Assembly (NCBI GenBank): GCA_010093815.1
Contig: ML996574.1
Origin: Pseudovirgaria hyperparasitica
Taxonomy: Eukaryota
DNA length: 64,000 nt
Direction: 5' to 3' (one strand)
Made by a program: the position numbers and the translations under genes. Each line of letters opens with the position of its first letter. The first letter of the stretch is position 1. The notes beneath the pieces are model-generated. The model worked only from the letters and a program-made list of their open reading frames with translations, was not told the DNA's origin and did not search any database. This document shows, in pieces, positions 2,881 through 34,601 of the stretch.

Positions 2881-3420
2881 AATAGAAGAGAAGAAGATAT
2901 ATTTTAAGTTTCTTACTATATCTATACTAGAATTAAAATATTAGACTTATTCTTAAGTTTAAAGAGAGTATATCTATTAGTAATATATATATAGCTTATA
3001 TTATTATAGAGATTCTAGTAGTCTATATAGATAGTACTCTATTAAAATTAGAGTATAAGACTATTTTTAATATTAATATCTCTTTATTAATAGAGAGAGA
3101 GAAAATATCTTTTATCTTTCTTAGTAGATCTATAGTAGAATTCTAAGAAGAGTATTATTCTAAAGTTTTATATAAGTATAGCTATTATTAATAGCTATAT
3201 ATAGATTATCTTTTATCTAGAATCTAGTAGTCTATAGAGATAGTACCTTATTAAATTAAAAGTATTTAAACTTTAATACCTCTTATAAATAGAACTAGAA
3301 GAAATATTCTTTATCTTTCTTAATAAATCTATAGTAGAATTCTATAAAGGGTATTATTCTAAAATTTTAAGAGAGTATAGCTATTACTAATAGCTATATA
3401 TAGCTTATCTTATATAAAAA
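2881..3420 (+). repeat. Degenerate tandem repeat, ~200-208 bp period, ~2.7 copies
   Basis: Units begin near 2881, 3089 and 3289. They share motifs such as tctata(c/g)tagaatt, ttattct, agtata(t/g)ctatta and tatatatag(c/a)ttat; units 2 and 3 are the most similar. Confidence 0.7.
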
Positions 3421-4449
3421 GTAGTAGTATTCTATATAAAGTTAACTAGTATAGACTCTAAATTTAGTACTAAGCTATTTATATACTATTTATATCTTAT
3501 AAGTATAAATAGGGAGTTAATAATATATATATATAGTCTATTCACGCCCTATTAATAAGTAAGTAAATACCTAGTATATAGCTACCTAATTAACTAGGGA
3601 TATACCGGTCCTAGAGGGGTATAAATAATATACTAACTAGTAGACTAAACTATCTCTTCTATATACTCGACTATAAATCTAATATCTAAGGAGGTATAGA
3701 GATAGATAGAAGTTAACGTATAAACCGTAATAATAGACTAGAGAATAGTACCTAACTTACTATATGATTATATATATCGCGTCTAGTCTAAAATAATAAT
3801 AATTACTACCATAAGGTAATAATGAAAATCACTACTATAAGATAATAAGGATTACTACTACTACGGTAGTAATTATCATCACCACGACGGGGCTTATTCA
3901 TAGTATGGTAGTTATCTACCCGGCACTAAGGGCATAGGTATAAAGGGAGCTATCAACTAAGGAATCAAACTATCCTCCGTAAATAACCTATAACAGGTTA
4001 AATGGGCGGATTCTCTTTAAAATCGTTAATTATAAAGGGTGTATAATCCACGACCCAATGGCGTGCGTTAAGTCCAGTCACGAAGGCCTATTAGGGGAGG
4101 GGGGGTAATGTATACAATAATGATGATAACTATCACTACGGAACGATGATAATCATTACCACGATAGGTGGTTAGGGAAGCCTAGTATTAAGAAACAGTT
4201 TCCTATGAGCCCGGTGGAAACAGGTCGAACAACGCTCACTTATAAGCGGTCCGCTTGTAGCTTAACCCTACGCTACTAAAGTTAAGACTATTATATAGTT
4301 CGTTATATGCTATTCCAGACGACATATCTAGAAGGTTTACCGTTCTATATACGCCGACGTACGGACCTATAAGAGTAGCGTTTATAGTATATTAAATCTC
4401 AGGGTATTCAAAGGTCATAGAAGCGTCTGGAATCGGCGATTCCAGGTAC

Positions 4450-6568
4450 TTATTTATATTAAGTGATGAAGTTCGTAGATGCGTACGAAAATATAAAGAA
4501 CTAAGAATTAATAAGACGGCTGAATGCCCACTCTTTTAGTATTACGGTCTAGCTATTAGTCTACGGCTATAGTATTATAGTCATAAGCCTACCCCAGTAC
4601 TAGATTATAATTTACTAATAACTACTTGAATCTTATACGCATGTCCGCACTTAAGAAAAACCCAACCCTTTAACTACTTAAGTCCATGTCGATATTATTA
4701 GGGTCGGTCGAATCTACCAACGAGGGCGGCGGGAAATCTAGGTTAGATCTAGGGAACGCTATATTATAGTAAAGTTCTTCAACTGCGTGTTCGTCCTTAA
4801 AAGGGCCATAATTAGCGAGATACTATACCTAGGTAGTAAGCGGCCGGTCTTAGTTAATGATAATGCCACTATTAGGCATGCTAGGCTGTGTATCGATCGT
4901 TGGCTATTTAGATAGATCTAAGATCCGCGACCCAGAATCACCCTCACCATCCGATGCGATAGCATCGGTGCCCTTGGGAGATATATACGATGACGTGGTA
5001 GTAATAGTCGGCATGGTCAGCGTAATTAAAGGAAAAACAGGAGGAGGGTTAAGGTCCGTAGAAGGTCCTAGAATCGGCGATTCCACACGTTCCTTGGAAA
5101 CAGTACCAGAGTCTACGAGGGGGTCTAGGGAGTTTATCTATGTAGTATTGTCGGGCACATCATCCAAAACCTTAGAGGCGTCTATAATCGCCGATTCTAG
5201 TGCCTCCTCTAGTATCTCGTCACTAAGTTTAACGCGCTTAACGGCCTTACTTAAATCGCTATGCGACGCTATACGCTTCTTCCTTATAGTTACTTCGGCT
5301 ATAGAAGACTTTTCGGCGGTGTCGGCTAGCGGCTTCATGCGACGTAATAAATCCTCTTCGTCACTCTCGTCGACTTCCTTAGGCGGGTCAAGGTCGGGAT
5401 CGTCATACTTCAGCTCATCCCGAACTTACTATATGGCGAGCTAATACGCAAAGCCAATATTAGACCAATGATCATGGAAAATTGGACGACCGAGCGACTC
5501 CCTAAGTTGGCGAAGTACGGCGAGTTATCGCTCCCGATAATTAGTAGGAGTCTCGAATCTAGGTTCTTTACATACGGGCTAGGCGAGCCAAAGACGAAGA
5601 CCCTCTACGAGAATTTTAGGGCTCCACACAAGTCTCTCGAGCCGCTCATAGGGTGGAATCAAACGGTAGTATTCCTTGGAGCTATGGAAGTGTAGATCGA
5701 TGCAGGTATTAGGTCCACAGCCGCCCGCTCTGGCACCACCTAGTATATATGTAATCTTCGCGATAAAAGTAAATCTAGCATAGAGCTTGCCTTAATTCTC
5801 GAGACGCGAAATTCTCTCCGCTACAGCCAACCAGAACTACGTAACGTAGTAGTATCCAACCAAGCGGTAGATAATAGGTTTACCTATTACTAGTCGATCG
5901 ATAAAGAAAGCTATCGCCCAAGGTCGTAGACACCCACTAGGAAGCTTTGGGTCGTTAGAGATTGTGAAGTCACCATCGTTTTTTTTGCGCTTTAGCGCTT
6001 TAGCCTTTTTTACAGCTGCGGCTATAACTAGAGTAGTGCTAGTCGGCTTTGCGGTGTCGGTTTAGTTTACCTTTGATCTTTTCGATGGCGTTCTAACTAC
6101 TTTCCGGGCTTTGGATTTTAACGGTATTCGCGGTGGTAGCAAGTTAGAGGCATCGGGTTCGGAGTCCGGATTATTAGGAAGTTCGCCATCTGCAGGCGGA
6201 GGTATAGAACCCAAATCATTAGTATTATCTTCGGGTTCCTTTGCCGAAGATAGTTCCGTAGTAGGGTGTAGCGTTTCTATAGTCGGCTCTTTTACTACTA
6301 TACTATTCTTAAGTGGCGGTGCGGTCTTAGACGTTTTGCCGGTCTTATTTATAACAGGATCGGCGGTATTTTTAGTCTTAGAACCCTTCTTCTTCTTCTT
6401 CGCGGGGGATAGTTTATCGGTTACTAGAGGACGGGCTACCACAGCTCGACCATGTATAACGTTATCCCTGATTATATCCTCGACGAAACGTGTACGGTTA
6501 GTATAAACTTCCTAAGACAGAGCTAACTTAACACTAGCGGCGCGAGCCGCATGTACACGAGGTGTCAT
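4450..6568 (-). pseudogene. Element gene A: ~700-aa unknown protein with basic Lys run (possible NLS), low-complexity segments and a C-terminal LKCGH (possible RING-like) motif
   Basis: ATG at 6568 (MTPRVHAARA...). ORF-track pieces 6062-6442, 5138-5338 and 4904-5086 appear to be parts of this gene, separated by TAA/TAG; a small intron is possible. 3' end uncertain. Confidence 0.55.
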
Positions 6569-6596
6569 CGGTGTGTATTAGATAGGTAGTTCTACG

Positions 6597-6724
6597 GCAG
6601 ACGGTTAGTATAGAACATGTATATCTTAAGAAGGGCCTGGAATCGTCGATCGCAGACGGTTATAGGGAACATGTATATCTTAAGAGGGGTCTAGAATCGT
6701 CGATCCCAGACGGTTATAGGGAAA
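6597..6724. repeat. ~54-bp tandem repeat (2.3 copies), each unit carrying the 19-bp palindrome
   Basis: agacggtta...gaacatgtatatcttaaga(a/g)ggg(c/t)ct(g/a)gaatcgtcgatc(g/c)c occurs twice, followed by a third agacggttatagggaa. Confidence 0.85.
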
Positions 6725-6769
6725 GACTATAGAGTGTATATAATGACGAATGCGCGGGTATTGGAATCG

Positions 6770-7700
6770 CTAATCCCAAGGATCACTAAAGCCGGGATTC
6801 AACATACCTAGAAACTTAATGGCGCGCGTTTCGATCGACGGGAATACAATACTAAAGAATATTAGTGGATGATAGTAATTCGTATGATTAGAAACCCACT
6901 AGACAATAGGTGCAATGTTAAGCATATCCTCCGCCAATGGCACGACGAGTAAGATATCGAATAGTATTTTATTATTATTAGAGTCCTCGAAAGCCATTCG
7001 TATACCGAGAAGGGTAGAATAGGCTCCGGCGTCCATAGCCTATCTATACTTCGATGTTCCGAGGACAGGACAAAGAATCCGAGCGACGCTACTAACATCC
7101 GGGTCCCAATAATTAACCGTAGTTTCGACGATGCTTTTATACAAACCTCTTAGGACGTCACGACGTTTTTTCATATCTAACTTCGTCTTTACGCATATTA
7201 GTATAGCCACGTGTATAATGATTTTTGCATTAAGATTATATGGCTCCGTTACCAGAATTTCCTCGGATTCCAAAACCTTATAATCCGCGAGGGCGGCCAC
7301 GAGTTCCGGACCGGCTCCTTTACGGATAACTACGTTAATACCACCGAAACGATTAGCATCCAATTACCTCTACGCAGCGTTCACTAAACAGACGTCCTTC
7401 TCCAGCATCTGCATAATATTACCGACCACGAACTTTACGCTGTTCATGCGTGACGGCATTGGTTTTTTATAAGATTAATAGAAACGATCGTTCCCTACTA
7501 GATTATTCAGGTCTTAAAGTGTCCATTAGGCATGGCGTATGGATCTAGAAGTTTTGGCCGGTTCCGAAGGTCTAGCATCTTCCACGGGTAGCGGAGCTAA
7601 TTATACCGCCTTCTCTTTTCCTTTGCTTGGCTTGGTCGGAAGGCTCTAATCGCCTGCTATTTTATTAAACCTATATAATCTATTTAGAGGCGTCTGTGAA
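6770..7700 (-). pseudogene. Element gene B: unknown protein, RIP-broken
   Basis: The frame of ORF 7040-7363 continues on both sides through TAG/TAA (MPSRMNSVKFVVGNIMQMLEKDV... upstream, ...MDAGAYSTLLGIRMAF... downstream). No family recognised; start uncertain. Confidence 0.4.
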
Positions 7701-8351
7701 TTGCGATTACTAATGAGATGAACGAACGAATTGTAAGACTTGTTAACGTATACGAGAGTAAGTAAGTTAATATAGAAGAGAGGAAATTATAAGGTGGTAT
7801 ATATTCATATACCTTCGTGCGAATACCAAGCTAGTCTCGTTTAGGCAGTGACATTATAAAAGTAAATAGAGGTTAATGAACCGGACACAATATAGATAAG
7901 TAGTAAAGTAAAGTAATACTAAGTAAATGAAATGAACCCTCCCTTACGTCGCGTAAGTCGGAATAATATAATACTAGTTCGAAGCCCATACTCACGTATA
8001 CTAAGATGTTACTAGGAGTAAAAGGCTGTCGGCGCTCGACGTTTCCAGACGCCTCTAGTACGGAGTGGAACCACGTTTTAAAGGTATGGAAAACAAGTAT
8101 AGGAATGCTTAACGGAGCGTGTGAGACAGTATTAGAAATTATAATGATATTTAACTAGGCGTCGATTATGAAAGTAAGGAGATATAATAAGCCATGAGGA
8201 CAACCATCCTTATATAGACTATTAAAGGAAAGATACTAGTAGCCACGAACACAATGAAATAACCAGTGGAATATAAATACACGCTGTTAAAGAAAAGTAC
8301 CAACCATAGACGCGACTAGAAACGCCGATTCCAATCCCTCCTAGAAGACGG

Positions 8352-11300
8352 TTAAGCCTTATCATCATCTCCACCTGTGTTTATTAGTATCTCATCTATT
8401 ATAAACTACTCTACCATATAAGTAGTCCAGTCCTTATTAACGAATCGTTCGGCAGCGTGTTCTATTAGGAAGAGATCTTCATAGTCTTCGATCAACTACA
8501 TTATGCGGATCGTAGGCTCTAATATAGATCTTAATAATGTTATTTTCTCGCTGGCTTCTCGCAGCGAATGGATCCTGTCTCTACTATCTACCTCGTCCTC
8601 ACCATGACCATAGGTACTACGCTTAGTAGGGTCCTCATCTAGGCGGTTATTAGAGCGGCGCATAGTATCACTAATAATGTCAAATATACCAGTAGCCCTC
8701 TCCGTTAGATCGGTGACACCTAGCCCCTCGCTTTAGTTAATAACGACACCACGGTTGAATATTAGGAGGCGTTTTATGACTTCAAGCACGGGAACAGCCA
8801 TGGATTCCGGTTTACATAGCTTCTTAAACTCCGGATCGTCTTCATGGATAATTAGATCGAAATCGTGGTACACATCTCTAATTATAGGATACCAGCCCTT
8901 AAGAATAGGCGGAATAATAACATCGAGAGTAGTGTCGAGGGTACCGTCCACGAGACTAGATAGAGTAGTAAACATCTTAGGCAATGCTCGGCGAGTCATG
9001 GCCATGGACATTTCAGATGCCCATGTGTTTAGCATGTAGTACTTAGAAAGCAGGGTCGGTAAGAGCTATTCAAGTCGAAATATGCGACCTAAGAGCTGCC
9101 GCAGGAGAGTGAGATTGGCTGGATAAGAAAAGAAATGAACATTTCTATTCACCTTCTATAAATTAAAACCAACCCCTATAATTCCGCATATATTAACGAA
9201 CCAATCGATCCGGGAGGGAACTCTATTAATGTCGTCCTAATAGGTATTATCGCCGTCTAAGAACGCACTAGGATCGGCGATTCCAGGCGCCTCTAGTAGG
9301 TCGTCCTCATCACCGGCAATATCGTTAGGCGTGGTCTTATTAAAGGCAGAGTCCATCTTCTAGTTAAATAGTCTATACTTTTATTATCTAGTTGGCGCGT
9401 CGTCTTCGGCAAAGACGCGTCCGACGTACTTAAAGCCCATTAGCCGTAACATGTAACATACTAACTCACGCTCAATAGGATATTACACCTATACGATGCC
9501 CTTCTCCTGGTACTTAAAGTACTGCGTTATAGCTTGTATAGCGAGTGCTACGAGCCGAGGGGACCAGTCAAACAGAATACCTAGTAGTGCCACTAGCACG
9601 TTCTCTACTTCGTTAACTAGCTTAGTAAGTCCACCCTTAGGATGGCTTCGATCACGAGCTTAGGCGATATTTAGTAGGAAAGCGTATATCCAACGCGGGC
9701 TCTCGTTCTTAGAGCTAGGACGAGGGAATTTTGGCTTCTATTCATTATCTTTCCTTAACGCTACTGTGTCCCTACGCATGAAAAAGTGTAAATACCCAAT
9801 ATAGACAATAGTAGACATCAGCACTAAGTTCCGCTATATGCGGGAGTTCAGGCTCAATTCCGAGGGTCGGTAAGGATTCGGCTAAATAAGCTTCTTTTAG
9901 GTCTCCTCGCTAATCGTGTCGTACTTAGCCTACACCTCTAGTAGATACGCCACTTTAATCTATACCCTTTCGGCCCGCGGAATATAGTTACGGATCAAAG
10001 TAGCATTATTATCACCATACCGTGAGTCGTTCGTGCGGCGAAGTACAAATACTCCGTATATTATACTTAAGTACTAGCCTTGCACCAGCTCTAATGGCGG
10101 CTTGGGATTATTACGGCCGGAACCCAGGCACTAGTACTCAAAGGCCGGAGAAGTTAGATACATACCTAGGACACGATCTAGTTTTTCCTGCGAAACGTCC
10201 GGATATAGTCTTACTATCATCGATAGAAACTTATATAGGTTAGACTTCGCCTTAAATGGCGGCTATATACCGGAAATACCGTTGAAATAATCGTCGAGGG
10301 ATGCGCTCTATTATATGACTTTAAGAAGACCCTATATATCACCAGCGAAGTTATAGACGGGAGTACCAGTCACGAGGACGTAGTGTTTAATGTTAAGCTC
10401 GCAGATGGACTGGTTAGTCGTAGAGTTAACATTCCGGAAGCCGTGTGCTTCGTTAGCTACCGCATAGTCGAAGCACTAAGCGAGGTTCTAAGGGGCATTA
10501 TATAGAAAATGCTGCTTCTCCATATATTTCATTTCTACCAATGCGACGGCGTCCTAATTTCTAGATTTAATATTCTAGAACTCCGCGTACCCTCGTATTT
10601 CCTCCCTCTACCTAGTAAGGCTATAACGGGCGTTGAACGTTACGTAGAATATTAAGATAATAGTGCGGGCGTTAATCTCCTCCGGTCTAAAGTACTAACT
10701 CTTCTATATTAAGATACCTACTAAACGCGTAGTACCAGTAGCTGATTTCCCGACCCTACTATCGCTGTGACTAGTAATGACACGGAAGAGCGAGGAAAAG
10801 TCCGCAATCTGCTCGGCGGTTTAGGTAAGGAGATTTACGGGTACTAATAGTAGGGCGGGCTTCGGAGGAGACACTAGGATACCCTTCTCGCGATTGGCGA
10901 TGCGCTCGTTAATCAACTACATTTCAGTTAGATATGTGTAGGCGCGTCTAGAATCGGCGATTCTAGAGGCCACTAGGGGAAGGAACTTACATGTAGCCAG
11001 TGCGCCAAAAGTATAAATGTTTTACCTAGTCCAACACCATCTACCAATACCACACCCCGTGAAACCGAACTATCCATGCTCTTTCGGAGCTACTAAGCTC
11101 CTATAAGTTACTACTAATATAGAGTAACGCCAGGATTCATGTTAAGAATCCGAGGTTTTCGGGTACTAGTGACTTGGAGACCCACCGCGGCTGTAATATA
11201 GTCTTATGGTTAGGCGGCGCCGTTATTACTCTAGTCATTTAACCAATCCTATAGTTTACTTCTCTTCTCGCTGCCCGACTTTAACTGATCTATAATTAGC

Positions 11301-12838
11301 ACTATATCACTAAGATCCGTGTTAATACGTGCGGTGATTGCCGCCTTATTATTATTCGCTTAAATAACCTCGTTAGTTTCAATCTCGGAGATCTTTTAAG
11401 TACCGCTTAAGCCCTTCATAAGATTCTTAATAGTAAGGTAAGAGTGGTACGGACACGTTCCTAGTTTAAGATAATCCGGATTAACGACGTCACGATCCTT
11501 ATAAGTTACCGTAAGCGTGGCCTAGAGCTCTTCTTCGGAGGGGAGACTCTCGAGATATGACCTAGCGAATGTACGCCGATCGCCTATATTAATGCCCTCG
11601 TCTTCGACTATAAATTCTAGATTATTATAGGTATCTATCGATGCTCCCGATGGATTTAGACCGCGTTTCTATATATTAGTCCACGCCTTAGTATAGTACT
11701 CGGGCAATTTTTTCCTTAGTGCCTTTATAGGCTTCAAGGAACGTTTTAGTTTTACTAGGGCAGCTATAGGTCCTTCTTTTATAGTAGCATCTAGTATAGC
11801 TAGTGCGTCTGGCATGGGTGCGTCGAGGAGCGAGTTCGGATCTATCGCTTAGATGTCTTCCATCAGGTCCTAATCTGCAGCATCGCTAGTATTCTCACCA
11901 AGTTCCCCATTCCGGTTAGTGGTAGAGTTACCATCGGCGGCTTAGTATTGATCTAAACGCCTTCTAGCTTTTTTCTTAGAAGGGCCTATAATCGTCGATC
12001 CTAGACGGGCCTATAGAGTAATTAGTGGATAAGTAGGGGGAACCTAGTTAGCAGGAACTTTCCGAGGCATTATAGACATCTACCTCGCGTTAGCATAGAC
12101 AATTTTTATGCGAAAGTTGTCCTCGTATTCTTGCCCTTGGTTACGGGCATGGCGTCGGTATTTAAGTACATCGTTAAATAGAAGATATTTATCGTTCTCC
12201 GATATACGCATTCGCGAAAGAGGATTCGTACGATTAGAAGACAGCTTAAGATCCATCCGGAGAATAAGAGACGCGCGCTACTAGTAATCTTCCCATTCAC
12301 TACGACTAGCGGCTGTTGCTACAAGGTAATGGGCACGGTCTTCTTTAATAAGTTCCATAGCTAAAGTGAACTAGCTAAACGGATGCGAACCTTCCAGAAT
12401 CCGCGGGTCAAAGAACTCTACATAGTATTCATTAAGCAAGGCGTTAACTTCAGGATCCTAGAATAAAATGGCTACTTTAACCACGCTAATTCCGAGGTCA
12501 GAGGCAATCTTACTAAGGCGACGGTCCTTTTCCAGCCTAGGTTCCTTTTTACACTCCTATCTAGCCTCTTTTCCCGGCTTTAGCTCGATAGGTGCGCCTT
12601 TTCCTACTTCGCCTGCTTCCTCCTCTATAGCAGCGACCTCGAGAAATCGCTCCATGGCTTTAGGATTGTAGCCTATTAAGCTACTACCTACGATAAGAGC
12701 GGATAAGGTAGCATATTTCTTCTATAACGCTGCTCTGGTTTCGCGAATCTCTTTAGTAGCTACATCTAAAAACGGATCGAGAAAATCATTATCTTCTTCC
12801 TCTTATGCTTAAATATTAACTAGAAGAAAAGGAGCCAT
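8352..12838 (-). pseudogene. Element gene C: SNF2/SWI2-family (SF2) ATPase/helicase, ~1,470 aa, with a 74-nt intron at 10917-10990; RIP-broken
   Basis: Motif I RGVVLVDGVGLGKT (~11020-11060), Ia PALLLVP, II VA(N<D)EAHGFRN (~10450), III VLVTGTP, V GVGFNL*, VI QLLGRIFRL (~9080). Intron GTAAGT...CTAAC...TAG in phase 0. Long N-terminal extension from ATG 12838. Confidence 0.85.
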
Positions 12839-13269
12839 AATCTCTAGAAGGGTCTGTAAACGGCGATCGGTGGGTTGAATATATATATATCGAAAAAATG
12901 AGATTACGTAAGAAAATAGTAAAATGATATAGAAGAGATGGAGAGAGTTAACGGAAATAATATATATAAATATATATTTTGGGTCTTGTCACGTGTTATT
13001 ATACAACCTCCTTACGTTACGTCATGACGTGTCACAAGTGAAGTGAATTAACCTATCGGTTTTATTAGAAATTCCAGCCCCTACTCTAGGAATCGCTATT
13101 TACAGGGTGCCCTATAGTTAAGGTCGTAGATCCTAGTTCTTATACTCTTATACTAAATGCGCAACTGCGTTGCTGGGAGAATCCTTTTCACGTCTCCCTC
13201 TTTATATTCTATTTAATATAGGGCGACGTGGATTAAGAGCACTGACTCACGGACGTTATCTATGGGCAT

Positions 13270-16200
13270 TAAGATACTCTATAGACTTTGCATACTTCTA
13301 GACTTAAACTATGATAACTATAAATCCCACCGACCCTATCGACTAACATCCACAACCAGTGGAGTGCCCTAATTAAATTCCAGAATGGCATTCGTAATTT
13401 CATACGCCCCCTCTCGCCGCTTGCGCTATAGCTAACGGGCTAATTCACTAGAGTCCCATGCACCTTCTCTTATTACCATTGGTAGTTAGCCCGTTTTCGA
13501 AATTCCAAACCCTTCCAACCGGGTAGCCTATCGTCTAGATAGGTGGACTACCATTACGCTAAGAGCTCAATATAAACCGAATTTCTATACGCACTTAATA
13601 TTTCCCGGGAGCCGACGGAACCCTAGTTGTCCCTCCGGTCTAGGCTCCCACCATAGATATAGAATTTATGGCCAGTGATAGGTGAAGCAGTACACGTGTT
13701 TAGGCATGACATCACTCTTTCGCATTTAGTCGGCCAGTACACGCTCAACCATGTCTATAAGTCGTCTGTTGTCTAAGTAGTGCGTAGTATAGACTCTACT
13801 ATTAGTACCGCATGCATCGCAATAACTAGCCCACCATCGTCTCTACTCGGATAATGACTGGACGAGACTTATATATTATCTATTTTATAGACGACGTTCT
13901 TATGCTACCAGTTTCATGGACTATTATTATATGAACATTCGTTAATTATAAGTGTCCTCGCCCACGCAATCTTCGTCCGGACGCGCACTAGGAAGTTCTA
14001 ATACCCGCCCTTTCGCTGGTCTTCCTGCCTCGCCTATACTATTACCATATATACGTGCTCGTTTCATCTTATTCCACGTGCAAGGCGGCTAGCGCGACGG
14101 TTAATCGGTCTAGGGTAGGTCGGGTTAACTATTTAAGGAACCCACGGGCGAGCTACTAGGAAGGTCTAGGATCGCCAATTCTAGATCCTCCTAGAGGGTC
14201 TCTAAATGTAGCAGGAATATCGATAGGGTAGGATCGTACACATCGCACTTCTCTTTAACCCCGTCATAGCTCTTTCTACCAAACGACCCGTCGAGATACT
14301 CGTCTAGAAACACCCTACGACACCCTGTCTAGTTCATGTAAGCAAGTGTTATCGCGTCCTTAGTAGTGGCTTCTCCTATCTTTACGAAGATAGCGAGGCT
14401 TCTCGTTAGGTGGTCGCGACCGGCCCGGCCGCTTTCTTATACATAGTCCAGGAATGAAGAAGGAGCGCCTAAGTATATCACGACGCGAATGGCAGCCAGG
14501 TCAACACCTAGGCCGAGAGCGTTTATAGCAACCATGATACCTTCTTCTTTAGCGATAAATCCGTTAAGGATCTACTCCTTAGCTATACTCTCTCGATAGT
14601 ACGCATCATAACCAAGCTCCCCTACGAGGCTAATAGCTTACGTGACCATAGGCGTGAAGACGAGACATCTACCGGTAATGCCCTATCTAACACGTCGCAC
14701 GTATTCCGCTTAACTACGGGTACCTCGAGCCTTCTTAGGTAGGCTCCCAAGCGTATACACAATATTAGGCCGAGTTATAGCTTCGCGGTAGATGAACACA
14801 TCTCTAGCGTTCACACGTATGGCTTTCCATAGCCCTGCTTCATCATCGGGTGGCAGGGTTGCACTTAGAAGTATAATCTACATCTCTAGGTCGACCATTA
14901 TTTAGATGTCGCGAAAGGCCGGCCGGAACTGGTCGTTATTAATGATATAGTGGCACTTATCGACAATCACACGGTCGAGTAGTCCTAGGCTGTTTATATA
15001 GTTCATGAACTGCATGAACGGTTCGCCTTTTATAGACTCGGGCGTAATAATAATAATAGACGTCCCGTAAGGGGGGTGCGTAGAGTCGAATGCTTCTATA
15101 GTAATACCACCATTATAATAACGGCGGATAAGGTCATCTCGAAGGGCCTTTAGCGGGATAATAACTAGTATTACTCCGTCTAGTACCATTAACGTAGCCA
15201 ACATGAAAGGTAGACTTTTACCTAAGGTAGTCGGCTATATAACTAGTATCGGACTACGGCCTTCGACTAGCCCGGTAAATACCTTTTCTTATTAGGGTCG
15301 CATTCTAGCGTTTTCGTCACGGAGTACGACCTTAACAGCCTTATACGGGTCCTTCTCCCGGAGTGCAGCCTAACGGTAAGCCCGTGCTTATGAAATTCGC
15401 GTCTAGCTAGGCGCAACCTTATTGAATACAGGCACCCCGATCTCGTGCTGCTATACGCGACTAACCTAGAAGTACCTCTCTATTGCCGTCTTTGCCGCAC
15501 TAAACGGGCTACTTATATCACGACTATACGCGATCTAGGCAATCTTTATACTATAACCAGCTTACTTATTAAGAATAGCGGTTAGACTATTATCTCGGGT
15601 ACCCGGATTCTGGTCCTCGTCCTATAGACCATCCTTATCGGCCTCGTCCACATGGTTAATCTCGTACTTCTGAAGCTTGCGCTTTATAATTATAATCGCG
15701 ACTTAACGATAGTCTATGATACCCATGTTAACTACTCCTATACTAAGATATATCTATTCCCTTATCGCATGGCTTATGCGCTCGCTAGTCTAGTACGGCG
15801 ATAGCTATATATATATAGGGACGACTGTCTATGTTAGATCCATGAATCTCTCGAGTTGTTCCTTCCACGGGATGACTAACCAAAGATACCATGTTAGAAT
15901 ATTATATACGACCGGCGGTAGATATCGAAGAATCAGGCGGATATCTCCTTTACGTGTATACCCTTTATGGTACTTTGTCATAATGCAAAGCTTATTACCA
16001 TAAAGAATAATATTACGTATATCACCCTGTCGCGTATTACGGTACCGTATACTTAGGATTTCTGGTCCGCGTGCAGGCTGTCCAGCTATTATATAGATAA
16101 GAATAAGTAGCTGACTAAGAAAGACTCGAATCTATTCGAGCCAGTCTTATACTTTTTATATATCTAACTCTCCTCTAGTAAAGAATGCTAACTATATATT

Positions 16201-17976
16201 CTAGTCCTTTTTAACTCGCCTTCTAAACCATAAGGACTACTTCTAGAGGCACGCTAACTAAAGGAAGCTATACCCGATTATGTTATCAGCCGTATTATCC
16301 GTGAGTGACTACCATGGGATTACTAGTGCTCCCTCTATAGAAGATAGTAGAAGAATATTAGTATATAATGTTCGCGCTGTTCGATTTATTAAGCTAGAGA
16401 CCATCCCTCTAAATGCATTTATTGGAATTGTATATGCATTATACGTAAGTGTATCATCAACCCACTATATCTTTGCGTCTATGGCTGTGTTACCCACGAT
16501 TTTAAGACCGTAAGCTCTAAGTTATATCTACTATCCAACTACACCGCGACTACCGCGGAGGAGATACTAGTTAATAAATGGTAAGAGATATCCGAGGACA
16601 TCTATAGTACCACCCGCTTACTTATGGAAGACTTCCTAGATGGCCTACTCAAGGATAATAAGGCGGGAGAACTTAATAAGTGCTAATAGAGTAGACGTAT
16701 AGTTCTATGGTGAAAGGAAGCCCCCGTTTCGATCTACATATAGTAGGCCGGATAATGGGACTAGTACGGCCTCGAATAAGTGCATATGTGGCGTCTATCG
16801 TAGTAATATAATAATAAGCTATATATAAAGGTAGGCGATGCGAGAAAGAGGGCGGGTTTAGATACTAAACACCTCGTATAGTTTTGCCCGACGTGTTTCT
16901 AGATCCCACTCGCTAAGATTACCTTCTACTCCACGATAGTCGTTGGTTACGCTCGTCTCGGGTTTAGAGTCGGAGCTACTATCACTCTCGCCGGATGGCT
17001 ATTCCGTAGTGATATAGTCCAGAAGCCGAGTAATACACGCCTTAGTCTTAGCGTTAAAGACTAAAGCCGGGAGGTAGTAGGGATTCTAGTACACTTGGAT
17101 GGCCCCGATAATAAGACGCTAAAGATGCTTCGAGTAATCGCGGAATATTTTCTAGTTCCGATAACGTGCGAGAGGTTACTATAGCCCGGGCTCTATTATA
17201 GAACGCGCTACTTCTAGGCATAGTAGTCTATCGTAAGCGCCTACTGTCTCATAGGCTTAGTAGAATAGAACTCTTAGACTAGATAATACTATCTTCAGCG
17301 GCCCTTCGGTAGGCACCTCTAGGATATCGGTAAGTGCGAGGACATCCATGCCTTAGAAGTAGTTAATGAATTTTATACGTTCCAGCCATGGATCAACTTC
17401 GTCGATAGCGCCGGTTTATACTATACGACCTTCGTCTTTAAGGACGTTCTGCTAATTTAACTAGAGCTAATCGAGTATAGTGTTAATTAGTGTACGAGTG
17501 TATGTAGTAGTACGTGTTATAATCGGGATAAGGCGGTTCAACCGGCCTATATTATATAGGCATTAGTATGGTACATTATCTCTATATCCACGTGTCTTAT
17601 CGTCCGCTCTAGGTGGAGCCCCCCTACGCCCATTGAAGAACGCTATATGTTCGTTTTTAATGTGTGATTTAAGATTCTTTAAAAGGCCAAGAACTAATCC
17701 GTAGTTCTCGATAATGCATTAGAACCCTCTCTTAACCGGAATATACCTTATAGGCCGTGATAGGGCAGCGGGTATTCGAAGGTCGTCGATTATAGTGGCG
17801 GTATGACTAAGCGAGTAAATATGGCTTTTAATAATCTTACGATACTTCGGTCTCATTCCTCGGTATTCTTAAAGGAGGTGGCGGTCTAGCGCGGATGGGA
17901 GGATGGCGCGCTTGTAATCTCGATAGATGATTACTCCGGTGTCAAGGTCGACGACTAGTAGTAAATCTACGGACAT
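13270..17976 (-). pseudogene. Element gene D: Zn-finger/DUF3505-like + tyrosine-recombinase-like + RecQ helicase + C-terminal Cys-rich fusion (telomere-linked-helicase type), ~1,550 aa; RIP-broken
   Basis: N-terminal GVII(C)RD(C)KRAILPSALDRH. Central GQPARGPEILSIRYRN...TKYHKG...LRYLP...DYR*...*AG(H)S...AY. RecQ motifs PTTLGKS, VIVD(K<E)CH, LLSATLPP, ALGLGVD, *ESGRAGRD, then CRR..LDEYLDG...CDV(C). 3' end approximate. Confidence 0.85.
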
Positions 17977-18218
17977 CTATATATATTCGTATAGTGTTAG
18001 TAGGTTAGCGTCGGGAGTAGACTATGATATATATAATTATGTTCCTATAGATGGGTGTGGAAACGGCGATTCTAGACGGCTCTAGAGTAAGGAGTTTTCA
18101 GGTCCTTTGGTTTTCGACGGCCGTGCCGTAGGAAATCAATAGCTGCCACTAGCCCCGATCTTTAGCTAAGGTGTTCCACTATTAGTGTAGTCGCTACTGA
18201 ATTAGTGTATTTCATTCT

Positions 18219-19811
18219 CTAATCTACCTCATCATTATCTATAGTGCGCATGTCCTATGGCGTACTTAGCCCCAGGCTATGGTCTTATAGATTAATTAGA
18301 TTTATAAACTACTCTAGCGCTATATTCGTAATATTTTCCGAGGTTATTCTCTCGATCGGGAACTGCCTAGGTGGCGCAATGTCTCCATTCAAAATCTAAT
18401 GTAAATATGGCTTAATACCATAATAAAGTCGTCTAAGCCATGGATAACATCGGTCTACGAGGCCTAGGAAGTCCTCTAGTATACTAACCCTTATCTTCTA
18501 GAAGAAAGAGTCCGTAATTTCGGGTGGTAGTAGAACGAATAACCCGTCGCCAAACCTCTTGCGGATTAACGCCTAGTGCGCGCCATGACTTAACCAATCG
18601 TTCATTTATTTCCACTGTCTTGTCCGCTTAAAGGCCTCCCCTTACTATGTACATATGTCGATATCTAGGTCCTGCGGTTATTCTAGACTTGGCGCATGAT
18701 CTTCCATGAGTTAATTAATACGGGCATATAGGCGAGCCTTTATAATTGACCGGATGCCTTGCCTAGTGCTAAGGGTGAATATGCGGTCTATTTTTAGTGC
18801 CTCCTTAGCAGCGTTTATAGCTTCATATATATCCGCGAGTACTAGGCGACGTCTAATCCCGATAAGACGCGATGTGTGTACTAGCTTAACGATCTTAAAG
18901 TAGAGTGTACTAGCCTGGTCTATGAATATACGCACTAAGCGTTCCCTAGTCGACGTTATATCCCTAATAATAACCTATAGGGGATTAAGGCTATGAGGCG
19001 CTATGTCTACCGTCTTACCGTCTCGCCATTCTTATAGTAGTAATCTAAAGTAAAGTAGCGTTAACGGTGAACCGATCTCTAATACGCGATTAAGGAGTTG
19101 TCTAACCATGTTTGTATCTTTAGGGAAGTATTATAATATGCCTATCTAATGAAGATAACTTGTATTTACACGGAGCTATGCTTCATGTTCGTTCCGTGAC
19201 GACGGGCTATCGGGGTTAGTAAATGGCTCCATAACCTCCCTAAGCATAGCCTCATGCTTTGCTCTTAACTTAGCCCGGATTTTATTACTTACCCTCGTGG
19301 TCGTTAGCGGAGTTCTCGTAGTTAACTATTCGTTCTAGTTAGATGCATCGTTACGGCGCCGCTTTCTAGGGGTATATATAGACTAACGCTCTTCTTCGTC
19401 GTCCTCTTCTCGCTCTTAATCGGTATTATAGGCTATTATCTCTGGTTGCGCTGGTACTATACGAAGAGCTACCGTGGTGCTAGGAGTTATATAAGATTAT
19501 TAAGAGGGTAGGGGAGATGTCGGAGGCGGCAGGCATGTGTTAGGAACGAAATCGTCTTCTTTATCGTTATTAGGCGAGTTATTATTCATATTAGTAACGT
19601 ATAAATGGGCTGGAATCTATTGCTCGTTCAGCTAACGAGCCGCTACCTCTAGTAATTATACGATAAATAGTGGCGGGCTAGGAAACGATAACGGTCGGAA
19701 GAAGGCGGCTTAAGCTCTATCGCTCCCGCCGATGGGGAAAAGTTTAAATATAATGTCCCATGCTTAACGTATACCATCTATATTAGGAAGCGGTACTAAG
19801 GGGGGTGCCAT
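18219..19811 (-). pseudogene. Element gene E: ~530-aa unknown protein with Pro/acidic N-terminal half; RIP-broken
   Basis: A single frame runs from ATG 19811 (MAPPLVPLP...) and includes ORF 18711-18935 and WLSHGAH*ALIRKRFGDGLFVLLP. Only TAA/TAG interruptions. Confidence 0.6.
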
Positions 19812-20249
19812 AGCTTATAAAGTTCGTGAGTAGTAGAATGGATTAGAATCGGCGATTCTAGAGGTGTCTTAGAGTACGCGATTCTATAAGGATTACTAAG
19901 GTCCTTAGACGTATGCGTAGGTCGGCGTGTAGCATACCTAGGTACCGATCGCGCACGGTTGGGAAAATCAAAGTGAAAATCGCGAAAAATGCGTAGTTTT
20001 CATGCATATTCTTCGCCACCCCCTCCGTGAAAATGATAATTATAAGTTAGCCAGACATAACTTTTGACCATGCGATTTCTTAATATATAAAAATTATTCG
20101 GATGTAGGCGTGGGAAGGGCTGCCTTTCGACTCTGCCTTACGGTGTCTTTCGACTACCTAGTTTTTCTACCAAGAGTCGTGCATGGTTACCGCCTAGGCC
20201 CGTGCAACGTTCTTTCGTATATCGAAAGAACGGCTCCTGATTGTTAGAT

Positions 20250-20810
20250 TCTAATAAAGTATATTATTTTAACGACGCTCTAATAGCTTCTACTATTTCT
20301 CTAGACGCTCTAGACGCGTAAAGGCGGTCTAAGCGCTCTACTAAGCTTTTCGCTAAGTAGCGGCCGTATATTCTTTCTCTAACTTAAGATAAGTCTTTTT
20401 AGAACGAACCTTCTTATCTAGAAATATTACTTACTAGCTCTAATAAGAGGAAAGGGAACTTATAAGATAATTTACTTAAAGCCTTAATTCTATACTTACT
20501 CCCTAAGTAACTCTAATAAATATACTCTAAACACTTATTAGACTTTACGAATACCGCCCTATAAGTTAAACTATATTTCTTATAGAATAAGTAAGGGAAA
20601 GGTATTTCGTTACCTTTATAATTAATTAAAATAGATAAAGTAACTCTTCGTTTCGCTAGATTAGATTTAGGAGACTTAACTAATTTTATAACTCTAGATA
20701 TAACGGAAGAAAAGGAAGAAGGGCTCCTTACCGAAGAAAATTAGAATAACCCTCTATTTATAAGTAACTATAGAAGTACTTTAGGACGAAGTACCTTAGA
20801 AGGGGTATTA
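20250..20810 (+). mobile_element. 3' internal fragment of an LTR retrotransposon ending in a polypurine tract
   Basis: ...ttaggacgaagtaccttagaaggggta lies just before an LTR-like repeat, resembling Gypsy 3' ends. No protein motif recognised with confidence. Confidence 0.5.
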
Positions 20811-21232: not shown

Positions 21233-21339
21233 CTCCTCTAAGCCTTCTAAGTACCTTTACCTTAAGAAAAGCTAGAATACTCTATATAATGGACTACTTA
21301 AGGGATAGACCGTATCCTCCTCTAGGAAGGTTTATTATA
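21233..21339 (+). repeat. 3' fragment of LTR family B
   Basis: Reverse complement aligns with 31203-31310 (tataataaaccttcct...tagagtattctagcttttct...cttagaaggct). Confidence 0.75.
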
Positions 21340-24300: not shown

Positions 24301-27300
24301 AGAGATATATCTAGGACACCTCTCTAGTAGAGATAATATAGAAGACCTATGGCGCCTATTCGGGCTTAGAGGAGTATAGATACTTAGGCCTTCGTTAGCC
24401 CTTTATATATCTATTTACTCGGTTCCTTCTAAGGCCCTCGGATCTATTCTAGATACCTATTCTATTAGGAGGCCCACTAGGCTTTAAGTACCTCCCTCTA
24501 TTTATCCTAGATCTACGACCGTATAACGCGGCTAAGCTTCTTAGAGCTCTATTAGCTCGGGACGGTATCCGGGTTATTTCGAACCTCCTATATAGTCTAG
24601 CTCGAGTCCGCCTCTATATGGTATTTATATTATACTCGAGTTTATTCTATAGTAGGGAGGGCCTAGTAATACGCGCGGATACGTGTGCGTAGTACGGCGA
24701 AGGTATATACTCTATCTCCTCCACGTTCTTATGCTTATTATTTAGTAAAGTATATAAGTCTCTATATCTAGTAGAAGTCCTATATACTTATTACGTTTAT
24801 CTCGCGTTAGAGGAGTATTATATTAGTAGCTTTATATACGCCGGAGATAAGGCGGAGTATACGGTTTTATATAGACTTAAGCTTTACCCGCCAAGCTTAT
24901 ATAAGGGCCGTATACTAGTACTCGTGTCCGTATATAAAGGCTAGGCGTACTAGGGAGACGTATAGCTGTCTCACCTTATCCTGGGCTATTCTCTATATAG
25001 ATGCCGTAATCCGGCGTATAGCGGTTTCTACCTAGAGGGCTCTAGAGACGGCGTGTGCCACCTATGGTCCCTATTTTAGCTTATTATTAATTATAACGCC
25101 GAGTGCTCGTATACTCTATACTAGTAGTTCTATAAAGGCGTCGATTTAGGGACGACGTGCCCCCTCCCTAGTAGCCTATTCTCTATAGCGGTTAATAAAG
25201 TATATAAGCTAGTATTTTTTAGGTGCGAATTTTACTCCGTGGCGCTTTACCCACTAGATGCATTTCTTGTAGTCTTATTCGAGTCGTATACATGTTCTAC
25301 TAGTACTACTATCGACCGTAAGGAGGTATATATCGTCCGCGTATCCGACTACCTCTATATATTCTATTCTCTAAAGGAGGTCTACTATAAAGAAGAGGAA
25401 GAGGATCGGGGAGATGGTACTCCCTTACGGGATGCCGTATACCGTCTCCTTATATTCGCTTCGGTATCCGGGGATATATATTTAAGTAGTCCTTTACGCG
25501 AGGAAGGACTATATAAATTATATAATCTACTTAGGTATTCGCCTTATCCGGAGGTTATAGATAAGTCTTATATGGTTTACCTTATTAAACGCCCCTACTA
25601 TATCTAGGGAGAGTAGCGTAACGACTCGTCCTTATTTCTATATAGTCTAGATAACCTCGAGGATGTGTTAAATAGCTATAATTAGGGAGCTTTCTACCTT
25701 CGCCTTCTGGTTTACTAGGAGAAGGCCGTGTACCTATACTACTATACTTATCTTCTTAGTAATCGTAGCTTCTAGTACCTTACTAAGGTAGAAGAGAAGG
25801 GCGATCGACCTCCATCCCTTCGGCGTGTTTAGACTCTTCCCTAGTTTTAGGAGTATAACTATATATATAGTTCGGAAGCTCTATAGGTAGTATCCTATAC
25901 GGGCGCACGCTCGGAATATATAGCCTATAATTAGTAAGGTCGCCTATATAGTCCTCTTAAGGCATCGATTTAGAATTCCGTCTAGTCTAGGCGCTTTATC
26001 GTTCGGGAGTATCTTAATAGCGCCGAGTATATCGTCGTCCGTAATTTCCCTAGGGATACTCACGGCTTCCGGGTATTCCGTGCCGTCGATATCTAATAGA
26101 TCTACGGGTTCTAGGAGAGGGAATATAACCTCTTATAGGATCTCTATTTTCTTAAGGCTCGTGGAGTATATCTTTTCTTAATATATAAGAGGGGGTATAA
26201 GTAGTATAGGTGTCGGGGAGGCGGTGCTTTTAGCCTATTTTACTATATACCATAGTCTAGTAGTATTACGTGTGTGTCTATCCGTAACTATACGCTACTA
26301 TTTATGTCGCTTATTACGGAGGACCTTATCTCGTTATCTTCTCGCCTCTCTCTATTCATTCTACGCTTTAGATATACGGTTATAGTATACGCGTATATAT
26401 AATCTCCGGACTTCTCGCCTATACTCTCGTACTTAAGGTATACTTTTCGGGTCTAGGGGTCTATATATTTAGTACGGCACGTGTTTATCTCTTACTCCCT
26501 AGTACGCCTATAGGAGTATATTCACGGCCTGGTCGATGGCCGGGCTATTAGATACGTCGACTATAGACGGGTCTAGAATTATCGATTCCAGGTCCTTTAG
26601 GTACTTTTTCTAGTTAGTATCCTTCTATAGCTATCGCCCTCGTTAGTCTTAAGAGATAGATATATCTATTACGGTCTCTATATATTCGTAGTCGGAGTCT
26701 ATCTATATAAGGCTTAGGCGGTAGTATTAAGTCCTATTATAAATATATCTAGTGGCTAGGGTAAGGTCGAGTGTAGATCCGCCCTTATCTTATTTATATT
26801 TTCGCTAGATAATCTATTCTACTAGTATAAGAAGGTATAGAAAGCCGTGATATCGGGTACGTAGTTCTCTAGCTCGAAGCTCTTCGCGGGTAACGGTTAG
26901 TCTACCCTACTAGCTATAATAGAGGTTAAAGTCTCCTAGGAGGATATATTATCCTAGCTTGGTAGTACTCTTAAGCATGTTATCTGCCTAAAGCGATCGG
27001 TTCTAATTATATATATTATATATATAGAGGAGTCTAATATTCATCTAGAGGTATAGTATTATCCAGAGGTTATCCCGTTTAGTATACGACTATAATAAGA
27101 GTAGAATAGACTTATAGATATAGAAGAGGACTCTCCTCTCCGGTCCTAGGGGGTATATTATATAATATTCTAGGTGTGTTATTGGTTTATTCGTCTGGTA
27201 GTATTTATATAGCTCCTATATAGCGAGTATTATAGCTCCGGTCTCCTTAAGGAGTATCGCCTAGTTCTTATATTTATACTATACGTTTATCTATATAATT

Positions 27301-34586: not shown

Positions 34587-34601
34587 GATAGATAGTAGGG
34601 T

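What the first reader, a model, noticed from the sequence alone, without database searches (positions are those of the whole stretch)
4427..19861. About 15 dispersed copies of a 19-bp palindrome CTGGAATCG-N-CGATTCCAG across the element
Seen: perfect copy at 4427-4445 and variants starting at 5068, 5182, 6637, 6691, 6761, 8316, 9268, 10948, 11986, 12854, ~13087, 14166, 18057 and 19843; many differences are RIP-type. I noticed none in the 29 kb of host genes. Copies lie within ~100 bp upstream of four gene starts (A, C, D, E), near gene ends (4427, 8316), in an intron and inside coding frames. Inference: a dyad binding site for a dimeric protein (element-encoded Zn-finger/YR or a host factor) that coats the element, acting like a parS-style loading, anti-silencing or promoter code rather than a MITE.
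Basis: partly seen in the sequence, partly recalled or inferred. Interest (0 to 1): 0.87.

Follow-up and report, generated by a model that had tools for sequence, protein, structure and literature searches.

The report
Palindromic mini-repeats in fungal helicase element
A decayed, multi-copy fungal DNA element carrying helicase genes is peppered with copies of one ~40-base palindromic unit that sits between genes, in an intron and in frame inside genes. It looks more like a tiny self-spreading insertion than a simple control site, but this is not proven.

Summary
The palindrome CTGGAATCG-N-CGATTCCAG occurs 11 times at 3 or fewer mismatches, against 0.01 expected. Ten of these lie in 4427-19861. 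None lies in the 29 kb of host genes.

The 19-bp dyad is the core of a discrete ~37-41-bp near-palindromic unit. The units come in sub-variants that are shared between distant sites and occur in both orientations.

The carrier is a multi-copy, RIP-mutated block of five co-oriented genes on the minus strand:
- E, of unknown family
- D, an OrsD + RecQ-like helicase of the telomere-linked type
- C, SNF2-like
- B, Macro
- A, of unknown family

No tyrosine recombinase was found.

Ten of the 15 units lie in the ~20% of the block that is non-coding. The five others sit in variable linkers or the N-terminal region of ORFs, with the reading frame kept. The extra copy sits in frame in the linker of an unrelated LINE-like retroelement.

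Best reading (0.4): a miniature palindromic insertion unit, like Rickettsia palindromic elements (RPEs) or MITEs, whose arms bind whatever protein moved it. Main rival (0.3): an element-specific binding site for a dimeric regulator.

No target-site duplication, empty site or genome-wide count could be obtained. Interest is moderate.

The parts
4427..4445 (.). Palindrome core, perfect copy. It lies 11 nt after the first stop of gene A and reads W-N-R-R-F in A's frame.
5068..5086 (.). Copy (2 mismatches) inside the ORF of gene A, read in frame as V-E-S-P-I-L.
5182..5200 (.). Copy (3 mismatches) inside the ORF of gene A, in an acidic region, read in frame as L-E-S-A-I-I.
6597..6723 (.). 54-bp tandem repeat (2.3 copies) holding the copies at 6637-6655 and 6691-6709, which lie 69 and 123 nt upstream of the putative ATG of gene A.
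6761..6779 (.). Weak copy (5 mismatches) after gene B. It reads W-D-x-R-F in B's frame.
8316..8334 (.). Copy (3 mismatches) 20 nt after the first stop of gene C. It reads W-N-R-R-F in C's frame.
9268..9286 (.). Copy (2 mismatches) in frame (P-G-I-A-D-P) in gene C. It lies in a ~44-residue stretch of the Helicase_C region that is absent from 9 of 9 aligned distant homologues.
10948..10966 (.). Copy (2 mismatches) filling most of the 74-nt intron of gene C (10917-10990; GTAAGT...CTAAC...TAG).
11986..12004 (.). Copy (4 mismatches) in the N-terminal reading frame of gene C (L-G-S-T-I-I), just before a KKKARRR stretch.
12854..12872 (.). Degenerate copy between genes D and C, with the typical left flank TAGAAGGGT.
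13087..13105 (.). Doubtful, degenerate copy after gene D. It resembles an inverted 12854 unit.
14166..14184 (.). Copy (4 mismatches) in frame (L-E-L-A-I-L) in gene D. It lies in the poorly conserved linker between the helicase/Zn module and the C-terminal Cys-rich domain.
18057..18075 (.). Copy (3 mismatches) at the end of gene E, whose first stop lies inside it. It is 81 nt upstream of the putative ATG of gene D.
19843..19861 (.). Copy (3 mismatches) 254 nt upstream of the putative ATG of gene E.
26573..26591 (.). It is read in frame (L-E-S-I-I-L) in the linker between the endonuclease motif and the reverse transcriptase of a LINE-like ORF on the minus strand.
18075..19589 (-). Gene E: a RIP-broken ORF of ~505 codons with no family found.
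13368..17976 (-). Gene D: OrsD (PF12013) + DEAD + Helicase_C, a RecQ-like helicase with the telomere-linked-helicase architecture. It is RIP-broken and its 3' limit is approximate.
8355..12079 (-). Gene C: an SNF2-related helicase in two exons, RIP-broken. The start is putative.
6902..7459 (-). Gene B: Macro domain (PF01661). The start is uncertain.
4457..6568 (-). Gene A: a ~704-codon ORF with a Lys-rich N-terminus and no family found.
25121..26936 (-). LINE-like ORF2 segment from the GDFN endonuclease motif (26913-26936) to RVT_1 (about 25121-25820). This is the context of the copy at 26573.

Best explanation
The 19-bp dyad is the conserved core of a discrete near-palindromic repeat unit of about 37-41 bp. 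The unit has two 18-nt inverted arms round one central base. Each arm carries two similar half-sites (outer TAGAAG-like, inner CTGGAA) about 10 bp apart.

Shown:
- The units are copies of each other. They have sharp edges, shared sub-variants and both orientations.
- They were in place before the carrier element multiplied in this genome.
- They occupy positions that tolerate extra DNA: spacers, one intron, and variable linkers of ORFs where the reading frame is kept.
- One copy lies in an unrelated LINE-like ORF.

Inferred:
- The unit spread as a miniature palindromic insertion sequence, in the manner of Rickettsia palindromic elements, mitochondrial GC-cluster or double-hairpin elements, or a minimal MITE made of two terminal inverted repeats.
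- Its arms are the binding site of the transposase- or recombinase-like protein that moved it.
- Selection removed copies from conserved coding sequence.
- Any promoter, terminator or chromatin role is secondary.

The carrier is a multi-copy, RIP-mutated five-gene block of the telomere-linked-helicase kind. In this genome it is dead.
For: 1. Unit and edges. Conservation and (transition-tolerant) palindromy run to +/-18 nt and then stop. The copy at 26573 resembles the others only over the central ~40 nt; beyond that, purine/pyrimidine identity is about 10 of 20 per bin, which is random.

2. Common descent.
- Units 6637, 6691 and 11986 share a central T, a GGGC left flank, ATC and an ACGG right flank, although 11986 lies 5.3 kb away from the other two.
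- Units 8316, 12854 and 18057 share AAACG.
- 5182 matches 9268 better when inverted (37 of 41) than direct (28 of 41). The same holds for 12854 and 13087 (33 against 22).

3. Placement.
- 10 of 15 copies lie in the 19.7% of the span that is non-coding (binomial P 1e-4; 3e-4 if the tandem pair counts once).
- The longest copy-free stretch (14185-18056) is the conserved body of gene D.
- 9268 lies in a ~44-residue stretch absent from 9 of 9 aligned SNF2 homologues.
- 14166 lies in a linker that does not align among 7 RecQ-like homologues.

4. Frame. In 6 of 6 in-ORF copies the same reading frame continues on both sides. This is expected if the unit adds a multiple of three bases.

5. Unrelated context. 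26573 sits in a LINE-like ORF (RVT_1, E 5e-19) that shows no similarity to the element.

6. The intron at 10948 is only 74 nt long and is mostly unit.

7. The unit is flanked by TA on both sides in most copies, which is compatible with a TA target.
Against: - No target-site duplication longer than TA/TAG was found at any tested boundary. That TA may simply belong to the palindrome.
- No empty site is known.
- Among the many copies of the element in the one sample that holds it, no contig lacks a unit. Only 1 indel (+ATC at 12790) lies inside 4.4-19.9 kb, and no joint skips a unit.
- Density is extreme and local: 15 copies in ~16 kb, against 0 in 29 kb of host DNA. An ordinary genome-wide MITE would not do this.
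- The 19-bp core is better conserved than the flanks, as expected for a site under selection.
- A unit of 37-41 bp is shorter than any eukaryotic MITE I can recall (recalled, not tested).
- No solitary arm or autonomous partner is seen in the window.
- In all 5 genes the copy at the 3' end is in the same reading frame of the palindrome (W-N-R-R-F). Random insertion does not explain this, although two of these five are the weakest copies.
- The copy in the LINE-like ORF could be native sequence of that element.
Confidence: 0.4

Rival explanations
1. The dyad is an element-specific cis-acting site. It is bound by a dimeric or tetrameric protein, either element-encoded (for example the OrsD zinc-finger end of helicase D, or the unknown proteins A or E) or supplied by the host. 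The sites serve as shared promoter, enhancer, boundary or silencing-control sites of the five-gene array, much as baculovirus hr palindromes serve IE-1. They multiplied within the element by short duplications or gene conversion.
For: - The core is more conserved than the flanks.
- Each unit has four half-sites with ~10-bp phasing and dyad symmetry.
- There are 15 copies in the element and none in 29 kb of host genes.
- Copies lie 69-254 nt upstream of the putative ATGs of A, D and E and at the ends of E, C and A.
- A 54-bp tandem duplication carrying the site lies just upstream of gene A.
- Positions are invariant among copies of the element.
- Telomere-linked-helicase regions of Magnaporthe oryzae carry their own 'helicase-associated repeats'. 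One of them (HAR-D) is interspersed and holds a 23-bp imperfect palindrome (PMC1635262, passages read).
Against: - Five copies lie inside ORFs and one in an intron, where promoter sites are not expected.
- Gene B has no copy within ~850 nt upstream, and gene C has none within ~770 nt of its putative ATG.
- Flanks and sub-variants are inherited together over ~40 bp and occur in both orientations.
- One copy lies in an unrelated LINE-like ORF.
- No DNA-binding partner was identified. Genes A and E have no family, and their models were too poor to use (pLDDT 36 and 39).
Confidence: 0.3
2. The unit acts at the RNA level. Transcribed at the end of each gene, it forms a hairpin that helps 3'-end formation or termination, or feeds RNA silencing.
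For: A copy lies at or within ~20 nt of the first stop of E, C and A, and after B and D. The perfect copy and three others fold clearly better than shuffles, so 4 of 16 units have z of -2.3 or lower.
Against: - 12 of 16 units fold no better than shuffles in their present state.
- The first copy (19843) lies upstream of the first gene, and others lie inside ORFs.
- Hairpin terminators are not a known feature of fungal RNA polymerase II genes (established knowledge).
- No Rfam family matches.
Confidence: 0.1
3. The units are recombination sites bounding gene cassettes, like integron attC sites. The five co-oriented genes would have been assembled or shuffled by a site-specific recombinase acting at the palindromes.
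For: Five genes lie on one strand, each followed by an imperfect palindrome. In 5 of 5 cases the palindrome is in the same reading frame relative to the ORF that ends there. Units 4427, 8316, 18057 and 26573 share the extended flank C[CT]ATAGA.
Against: - No tyrosine or serine recombinase domain was found in what was scanned.
- Many units lie inside genes.
- No variation in gene order or content was seen among copies.
- Nothing of this kind is known in fungal nuclei (recalled).
Confidence: 0.05

Closest known systems
Rickettsia palindromic elements (RPEs), and mitochondrial GC-cluster or double-hairpin elements of yeasts and Allomyces (recalled, not searched here)
   Same: Short palindromic units dispersed at high local density. 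They are found in spacers and also in frame inside protein-coding genes, at places where the protein tolerates extra residues.
   Different: Those live in bacterial or organelle genomes and are 100-150 bp (RPEs) or GC-rich clusters. This unit is ~40 bp, lies in nuclear fungal repeats, and mobility has not been shown here.
MITEs, for example the Fusarium mimp family (named in a search listing; its properties are recalled)
   Same: Terminal inverted repeats, no coding capacity, multiple copies, and possibly a TA target.
   Different: The unit is 37-41 bp and consists only of its two arms. No target duplication beyond TA is seen, no empty sites and no autonomous partner. Copies are concentrated in one element rather than spread across the genome, as far as the window shows.
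Baculovirus homologous regions (hr): ~30-bp imperfect palindromes bound by IE-1 dimers, acting as enhancers and origins (recalled)
   Same: Imperfect palindromes of similar size dispersed through one genetic element, at and between genes. This is the model for the binding-site rival.
   Different: The hr palindromes occur in tandem clusters in a viral genome. Here the units are mostly single, some lie inside ORFs, and no binding protein is known.
Helicase-associated repeats (HARs) of the Magnaporthe oryzae telomere-linked helicase region (PMC1635262, passages read)
   Same: Short repeats specific to a multi-copy block built round a RecQ-like telomere-linked helicase gene. HAR-D is interspersed and holds a 23-bp imperfect palindrome.
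   Different: HARs are mostly tandem arrays outside the gene and some carry telomere-like motifs. No sequence likeness to the present unit was tested, and no telomere repeat is present in this window.
Fungal telomere-linked RecQ helicase (TLH) subtelomeric repeats (for the carrier element)
   Same: Gene D has OrsD/DUF3505 + DEAD + Helicase_C in a ~1,400-1,500-residue protein. This is the architecture reported for Fusarium subtelomeric helicases (bioRxiv 10.1101/2023.02.05.527183, passages read). It is multi-copy and RIP-mutated.
   Different: The block also carries SNF2, Macro and two unknown genes. It lies between AT-rich RIP-mutated DNA ~15 kb from ordinary genes, and no telomere repeat is in the window.

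Membership tests
MITE (miniature inverted-repeat transposable element) | Terminal inverted repeats | tested here: met
   The two 18-nt arms pair. In 16 units, 9 to 16 units pair exactly at each core position (1-9), and pairing resumes at positions 15-17.
MITE (miniature inverted-repeat transposable element) | Target-site duplication flanking each copy | tested here: inconclusive
   Only TA/TAG recurs at the edges (6 of 16 units have an exact 2-nt match at half-length 16). No 3-9-nt duplication appears at any boundary, either exact or transition-tolerant. The TA may be part of the palindrome.
MITE (miniature inverted-repeat transposable element) | Copies at unrelated loci, and presence/absence differences between homologous sites | tested here: inconclusive
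   One copy lies in an unrelated LINE-like ORF. No unit-sized indel or joint was seen among the copies of the element in the two runs that hold it. The whole genome is not held.
RPE-like in-frame palindromic insertion | The unit lies inside ORFs, with the reading frame kept, at sites that are variable among homologues | tested here: met
   The frame is kept in 6 of 6 in-ORF copies. 9268 lies in a stretch absent from 9 of 9 homologues. 14166 lies in a non-alignable linker among 7 homologues. The gap in gene C is ~44 residues, much larger than one unit.
Dyad binding site of a dimeric regulator (hr- or parS-like) | Sequence-specific binding by a protein, with an effect on expression, replication or segregation | not testable with these tools
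   No binder was identified. OrsD is present. Genes A and E have no family and their models had pLDDT 36 and 39.
Dyad binding site of a dimeric regulator (hr- or parS-like) | Enrichment in the element relative to host DNA, and dyad symmetry | tested here: met
   11 matches against 0.01 expected. None in 34501-64000.
Integron-like cassette array | Site-specific (tyrosine) recombinase gene next to the array | tested here: not met
   No recombinase family was found in any of the following:
- stop-to-stop ORFs of 55 aa or more in six frames, 3.5-29.5 kb
- read-through minus frames of 4000-8400 and 12700-17599
- all six frames of 17500-20700
- genes C, E and A
The plus frames of 4000-17500 were not read through.
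Telomere-linked RecQ helicase subtelomeric repeat (carrier element) | RecQ-like helicase with OrsD/DUF3505 + DEAD + Helicase_C | tested here: met
   PF12013 E 1.4e-7; DEAD E 1e-9 and Helicase_C E 2.8e-8. The best relatives are fungal proteins of 1,320-1,542 residues, some named RecQ, and two of them carry PF12013.
Telomere-linked RecQ helicase subtelomeric repeat (carrier element) | Adjacency to telomere repeats | tested here: not met
   No (TTAGGG)n or its complement with 2 or more units occurs anywhere in the window. The position of the window in its chromosome is unknown.
   Same scans as for the integron row. Nothing was found.

The most novel reading that the evidence does not exclude
This would be a nuclear, eukaryotic counterpart of the Rickettsia palindromic elements. 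The unit is a ~39-bp (13-codon) palindromic mini-element that spreads within and between fungal repeat elements. Depending on its reading frame, it is either read through as an L-E-S-x-I-P loop inside proteins or marks the end of the ORF as W-N-R-R-F. In that case it would have shaped the 3' ends of all five genes of a helicase-bearing subtelomere-type element, and it may be moved by one of the element's own unknown proteins (A or E).
Probability: 0.12. Interest if true: 0.8.

Novelty: new variant of a known kind. Interest (0 to 1): 0.5.

Why it matters
If the unit is a mobile mini-palindrome, it would be the shortest eukaryotic nuclear insertion unit described. It would also be a rare case of in-frame palindromic insertions in eukaryotic genes.

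If instead it is a binding site, it would give a handle on how multi-copy telomere-linked-helicase blocks of fungi are controlled. That question has been open since such blocks were described.

Either way, the unit is a compact marker for finding this element family in other genomes. In this genome the element is inactivated by RIP, so function can only be studied in an intact relative.

Tried and rejected
**Searches for relatives**
- Metagenome contigs, exact pattern: 20 loci, each with a single match, GC 0.41-0.71, no second copy at 4 or fewer mismatches and no similarity to the window beyond the motif. I read these as chance hits.
- Viral contigs: 0 matches.
- Word-indexed protein search with gene C and gene E: nothing.
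- Exhaustive search with gene C: only 79 hits at E 1e-3 or better. The best is a 157-residue fragment at 84% identity, which I take to be a sibling copy. The next best has 30% identity.
- Names for these hits could not be fetched, because the database was switched off.
- The peptides encoded by the palindrome were sought in all 114 fetched proteins. They occur only in the sibling fragment. Two NRRF tetrapeptides were found, which I estimate (uncomputed) to be about chance level.

**Sequencing runs**
- No RNA holder is listed.
- Two runs of another sample with the same species label held next to none of the words and laid 0 and 1 contigs. This is no proof of absence.

**Checks on the sequence itself**
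- No terminal inverted repeats or LTRs of the 16-kb block were found.
- A transition-tolerant comparison of the 24-29 kb block with the element scored no better than controls. The test was crude.
- The weak hit at 32456 is not homologous in its flanks to 26573.
- The four in-ORF copies checked (5068, 5182, 11986, 14166) have no plausible intron around them: 3 have no donor site nearby, 14166 only one downstream of the unit. 9268 has only a weak donor at the edge of the unit itself.
- No Rfam family matches in 1-35000.

**Structure and function of genes E and A**
- Structure models of E (pLDDT 36) and of the core of A (pLDDT 39) were too poor to search with.
- The protein atlas would not take a read-through translation.

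**Ideas considered and dropped**
- Heat-shock-factor-type site (GAA/TTC units every 10 bp): the orientation of the units on the two arms does not fit the alternating HSE register (reasoned from recall).
- Excision footprints of a larger transposon: this would need the same 37-bp remnant to arise about 15 times.

**Literature and earlier notes**
- No paper in the searched library prints the 15-nt core in any of its four centre variants.
- Searches on TLH, RecQ, SNF2, OrsD, palindromes and Starship found no description of such a unit.
- Earlier notes of this scan hold nothing on this genome or sequence.

Full report
**Observation**

The palindrome CTGGAATCG-N-CGATTCCAG occurs 11 times in the window at 3 or fewer mismatches, against 0.01 expected from shuffles.
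- Ten of these lie in 4427-19861.
- At 5 or fewer mismatches, 6761, 11986 and 14166 join, plus 8030 and 32456.
12854 is backed by its flanks and a profile hit (E 2.3e-4). 13087 is backed only by its likeness to an inverted 12854.
- The host part (34.5-64 kb) has no copy, even when transitions are tolerated.
- Of 50 differences from the consensus, 16 are classic RIP changes, 19 are other transitions and 15 are transversions.
- RIP indices show that the element is mutated: TpA/ApT is 1.38 and (CpA+TpG)/(ApC+GpT) is 0.61. The host DNA is not (0.73 and 1.24).

**The unit**

- Conservation extends beyond the 19-bp core to about +/-18 nt: TAGA-r-ssGT, then the core, then AC-ss-y-TCTA. The whole is a ~37-bp imperfect palindrome.
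- Each arm has an outer TAGAAG-like motif and an inner CTGGAA motif about 10 bp apart.
- Outside ~40 nt the copies are unrelated.
- Sub-variants are shared by distant copies. 6637, 6691 and 11986 form one group, and 8316, 12854 and 18057 another.
- Some pairs match better when inverted: 5182 with 9268 (37 of 41 against 28 of 41), and 12854 with 13087 (33 against 22).
- The units therefore descend from one another and have an orientation.
- As single-stranded DNA, 4 of 16 units fold clearly better than shuffles in their present mutated state.

**The carrier element**

All recognisable genes lie on the minus strand and are broken by RIP-type stops.

| Gene | Coordinates | Content |
|---|---|---|
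| E | 19589-18075 | No family found |
| D | about 17976-13368 | OrsD, DEAD and Helicase_C |
| C | 12079-8355 | SNF2-related, with one 74-nt intron |
| B | about 7459-6902 | Macro |
| A | 6568-4457 | No family found |

- The best relatives of D are fungal RecQ-like proteins of 1,320-1,542 residues.
- C is very isolated: only 79 hits among 1.8 billion representatives.
- The OrsD/DUF3505 + DEAD + Helicase_C architecture is the one reported for Fusarium subtelomeric helicases (bioRxiv 10.1101/2023.02.05.527183, passages read).
- No telomere repeat is in the window, and no tyrosine recombinase was found in what I scanned.

Contigs of two runs from one sample were laid on 3500-21500.
- In run X1, 2,842 pieces fit at 80-100% identity.
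- They differ from the window mainly by C>T (605 places), G>A (567), A>G (208) and T>C (126).
- There is one indel inside the element, and no joint skips a unit.
- The block is therefore multi-copy, each copy was RIP-mutated independently, and the units predate its multiplication.

**Placement of the units**

- Ten of 15 units lie in the 19.7% of the span that is non-coding on my gene map (P about 1e-4).
- Units lie upstream of the ATGs of A (69, 123 and 193 nt), D (81 nt) and E (254 nt).
- Units lie at or just after the first stops of E, C and A.
- One unit fills most of C's intron.
- Five units lie inside ORFs: two in an acidic region of A; one in a ~44-residue stretch of C's Helicase_C region that is absent from 9 of 9 homologues; one near C's N-terminus; and one in a linker of D that does not align among 7 homologues.
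- The copy at 26573 lies in frame in the linker between the endonuclease motif and the reverse transcriptase of a LINE-like ORF.
- In all six in-ORF cases the same reading frame continues on both sides.
- Five of the six are read as L-E-S-x-I-(P/L) and one as G-I-x-D-(S/P).

**An unexplained regularity**

The copy at the 3' end of each of the five genes is read, in that gene's frame, as W-N-R-R-F or its mutated form. Two of these five (6761, 13087) are the weakest copies. After RIP this frame alone yields TAG, which may bias where ORFs appear to end. The pattern may mean that units in this frame ended ORFs, or that gene ends share a module. I could not decide between these.

**Interpretation**

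The evidence favours a small palindromic insertion unit filtered by selection, like RPEs or a minimal MITE:
- a discrete unit
- inherited sub-variants
- both orientations
- tolerance-shaped placement
- frame-preserving presence in ORFs
- a copy in an unrelated retroelement

Against this reading:
- no target duplication beyond TA
- no empty site
- no polymorphism among copies
- the extreme concentration in one element
- a core that is better conserved than its flanks

The two readings overlap, because the arms of a mobile unit must also bind a protein. I put 0.4 on the insertion unit, 0.3 on the resident binding site, 0.1 on an RNA hairpin and 0.05 on a cassette recombination site.

**Limits**

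- No genome is held for this window.
- No fungal genome collection could be searched for DNA.
- The one metagenome scan gave only chance hits.
- Names of the SNF2-search hits (P0001-P0079) could not be fetched.
- No RNA data are listed.
- My gene starts and ends rest on read-through of mutated ORFs and are approximate.

**Verdict**

The feature is real and of moderate interest. It is a new variant of known kinds of short palindromic repeats, in a dead copy of a telomere-linked-helicase-type element. Its mechanism is open, but it can be tested with genome-wide counts and with intact relatives.

Noticed in passing
window 23997-24027, 28786-28816, 34311-34341: A second, unrelated palindrome of ~31 nt (TTATTAGTTAAGGGCTACCCTTAACTAATAA type, 88-90% between copies) recurs at spacings of 4789 and 5525 nt. 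It sits at the edges of the LINE-like block or blocks and may be an end structure of that retroelement.
   Followed up: partly
window 25121-26936 (minus strand): The 24-29 kb block is a heavily RIP-mutated LINE-like retroelement. It has RVT_1 (E 5e-19), a YADD motif and a GDFN endonuclease motif, all in one frame.
   Followed up: partly
window 20811-21230 and 31888-32307: A 420-nt inverted repeat at 93% identity. In the laid runs, 20.3-21.5 kb has about ten to twenty-five times the summed depth of the helicase element, so it belongs to a much more abundant repeat.
   Followed up: no
window 2150-2329 and 34601-34780: A direct repeat (~180 nt, 77%) brackets the whole 32-kb repeat island next to the host genes. 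The island may be nested inside an older element.
   Followed up: no
window 4427, 6761, 8316, 13087, 18057 (minus-strand reading): At the 3' end of each of the five genes the palindrome is in the same frame (W-N-R-R-F). Five of the six in-ORF copies are in the L-E-S-x-I-P/L frame. After 8316 the same frame stays open for ~50 more codons.
   Followed up: partly
window 8355-12079 (gene C): The SNF2-like gene is very isolated. Only 79 of 1.84 billion representative proteins match at E 1e-3 or better. The best match that is not a sibling copy has 30% identity.
   Followed up: partly
window 4017-4035 and 8030-8058: Two possible further, badly decayed copies of the unit. 4017 appears only in the transition-tolerant scan. 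8036-8058 has nhmmer E 0.0035.
   Followed up: partly
window 1-3500, 20500-24000, 29000-34500: AT-rich stretches (GC 0.18-0.31) with a (CpA+TpG)/(ApC+GpT) ratio of 0.01-0.06. RIP there is close to saturation, so any units in them would no longer be recognisable.
   Followed up: no
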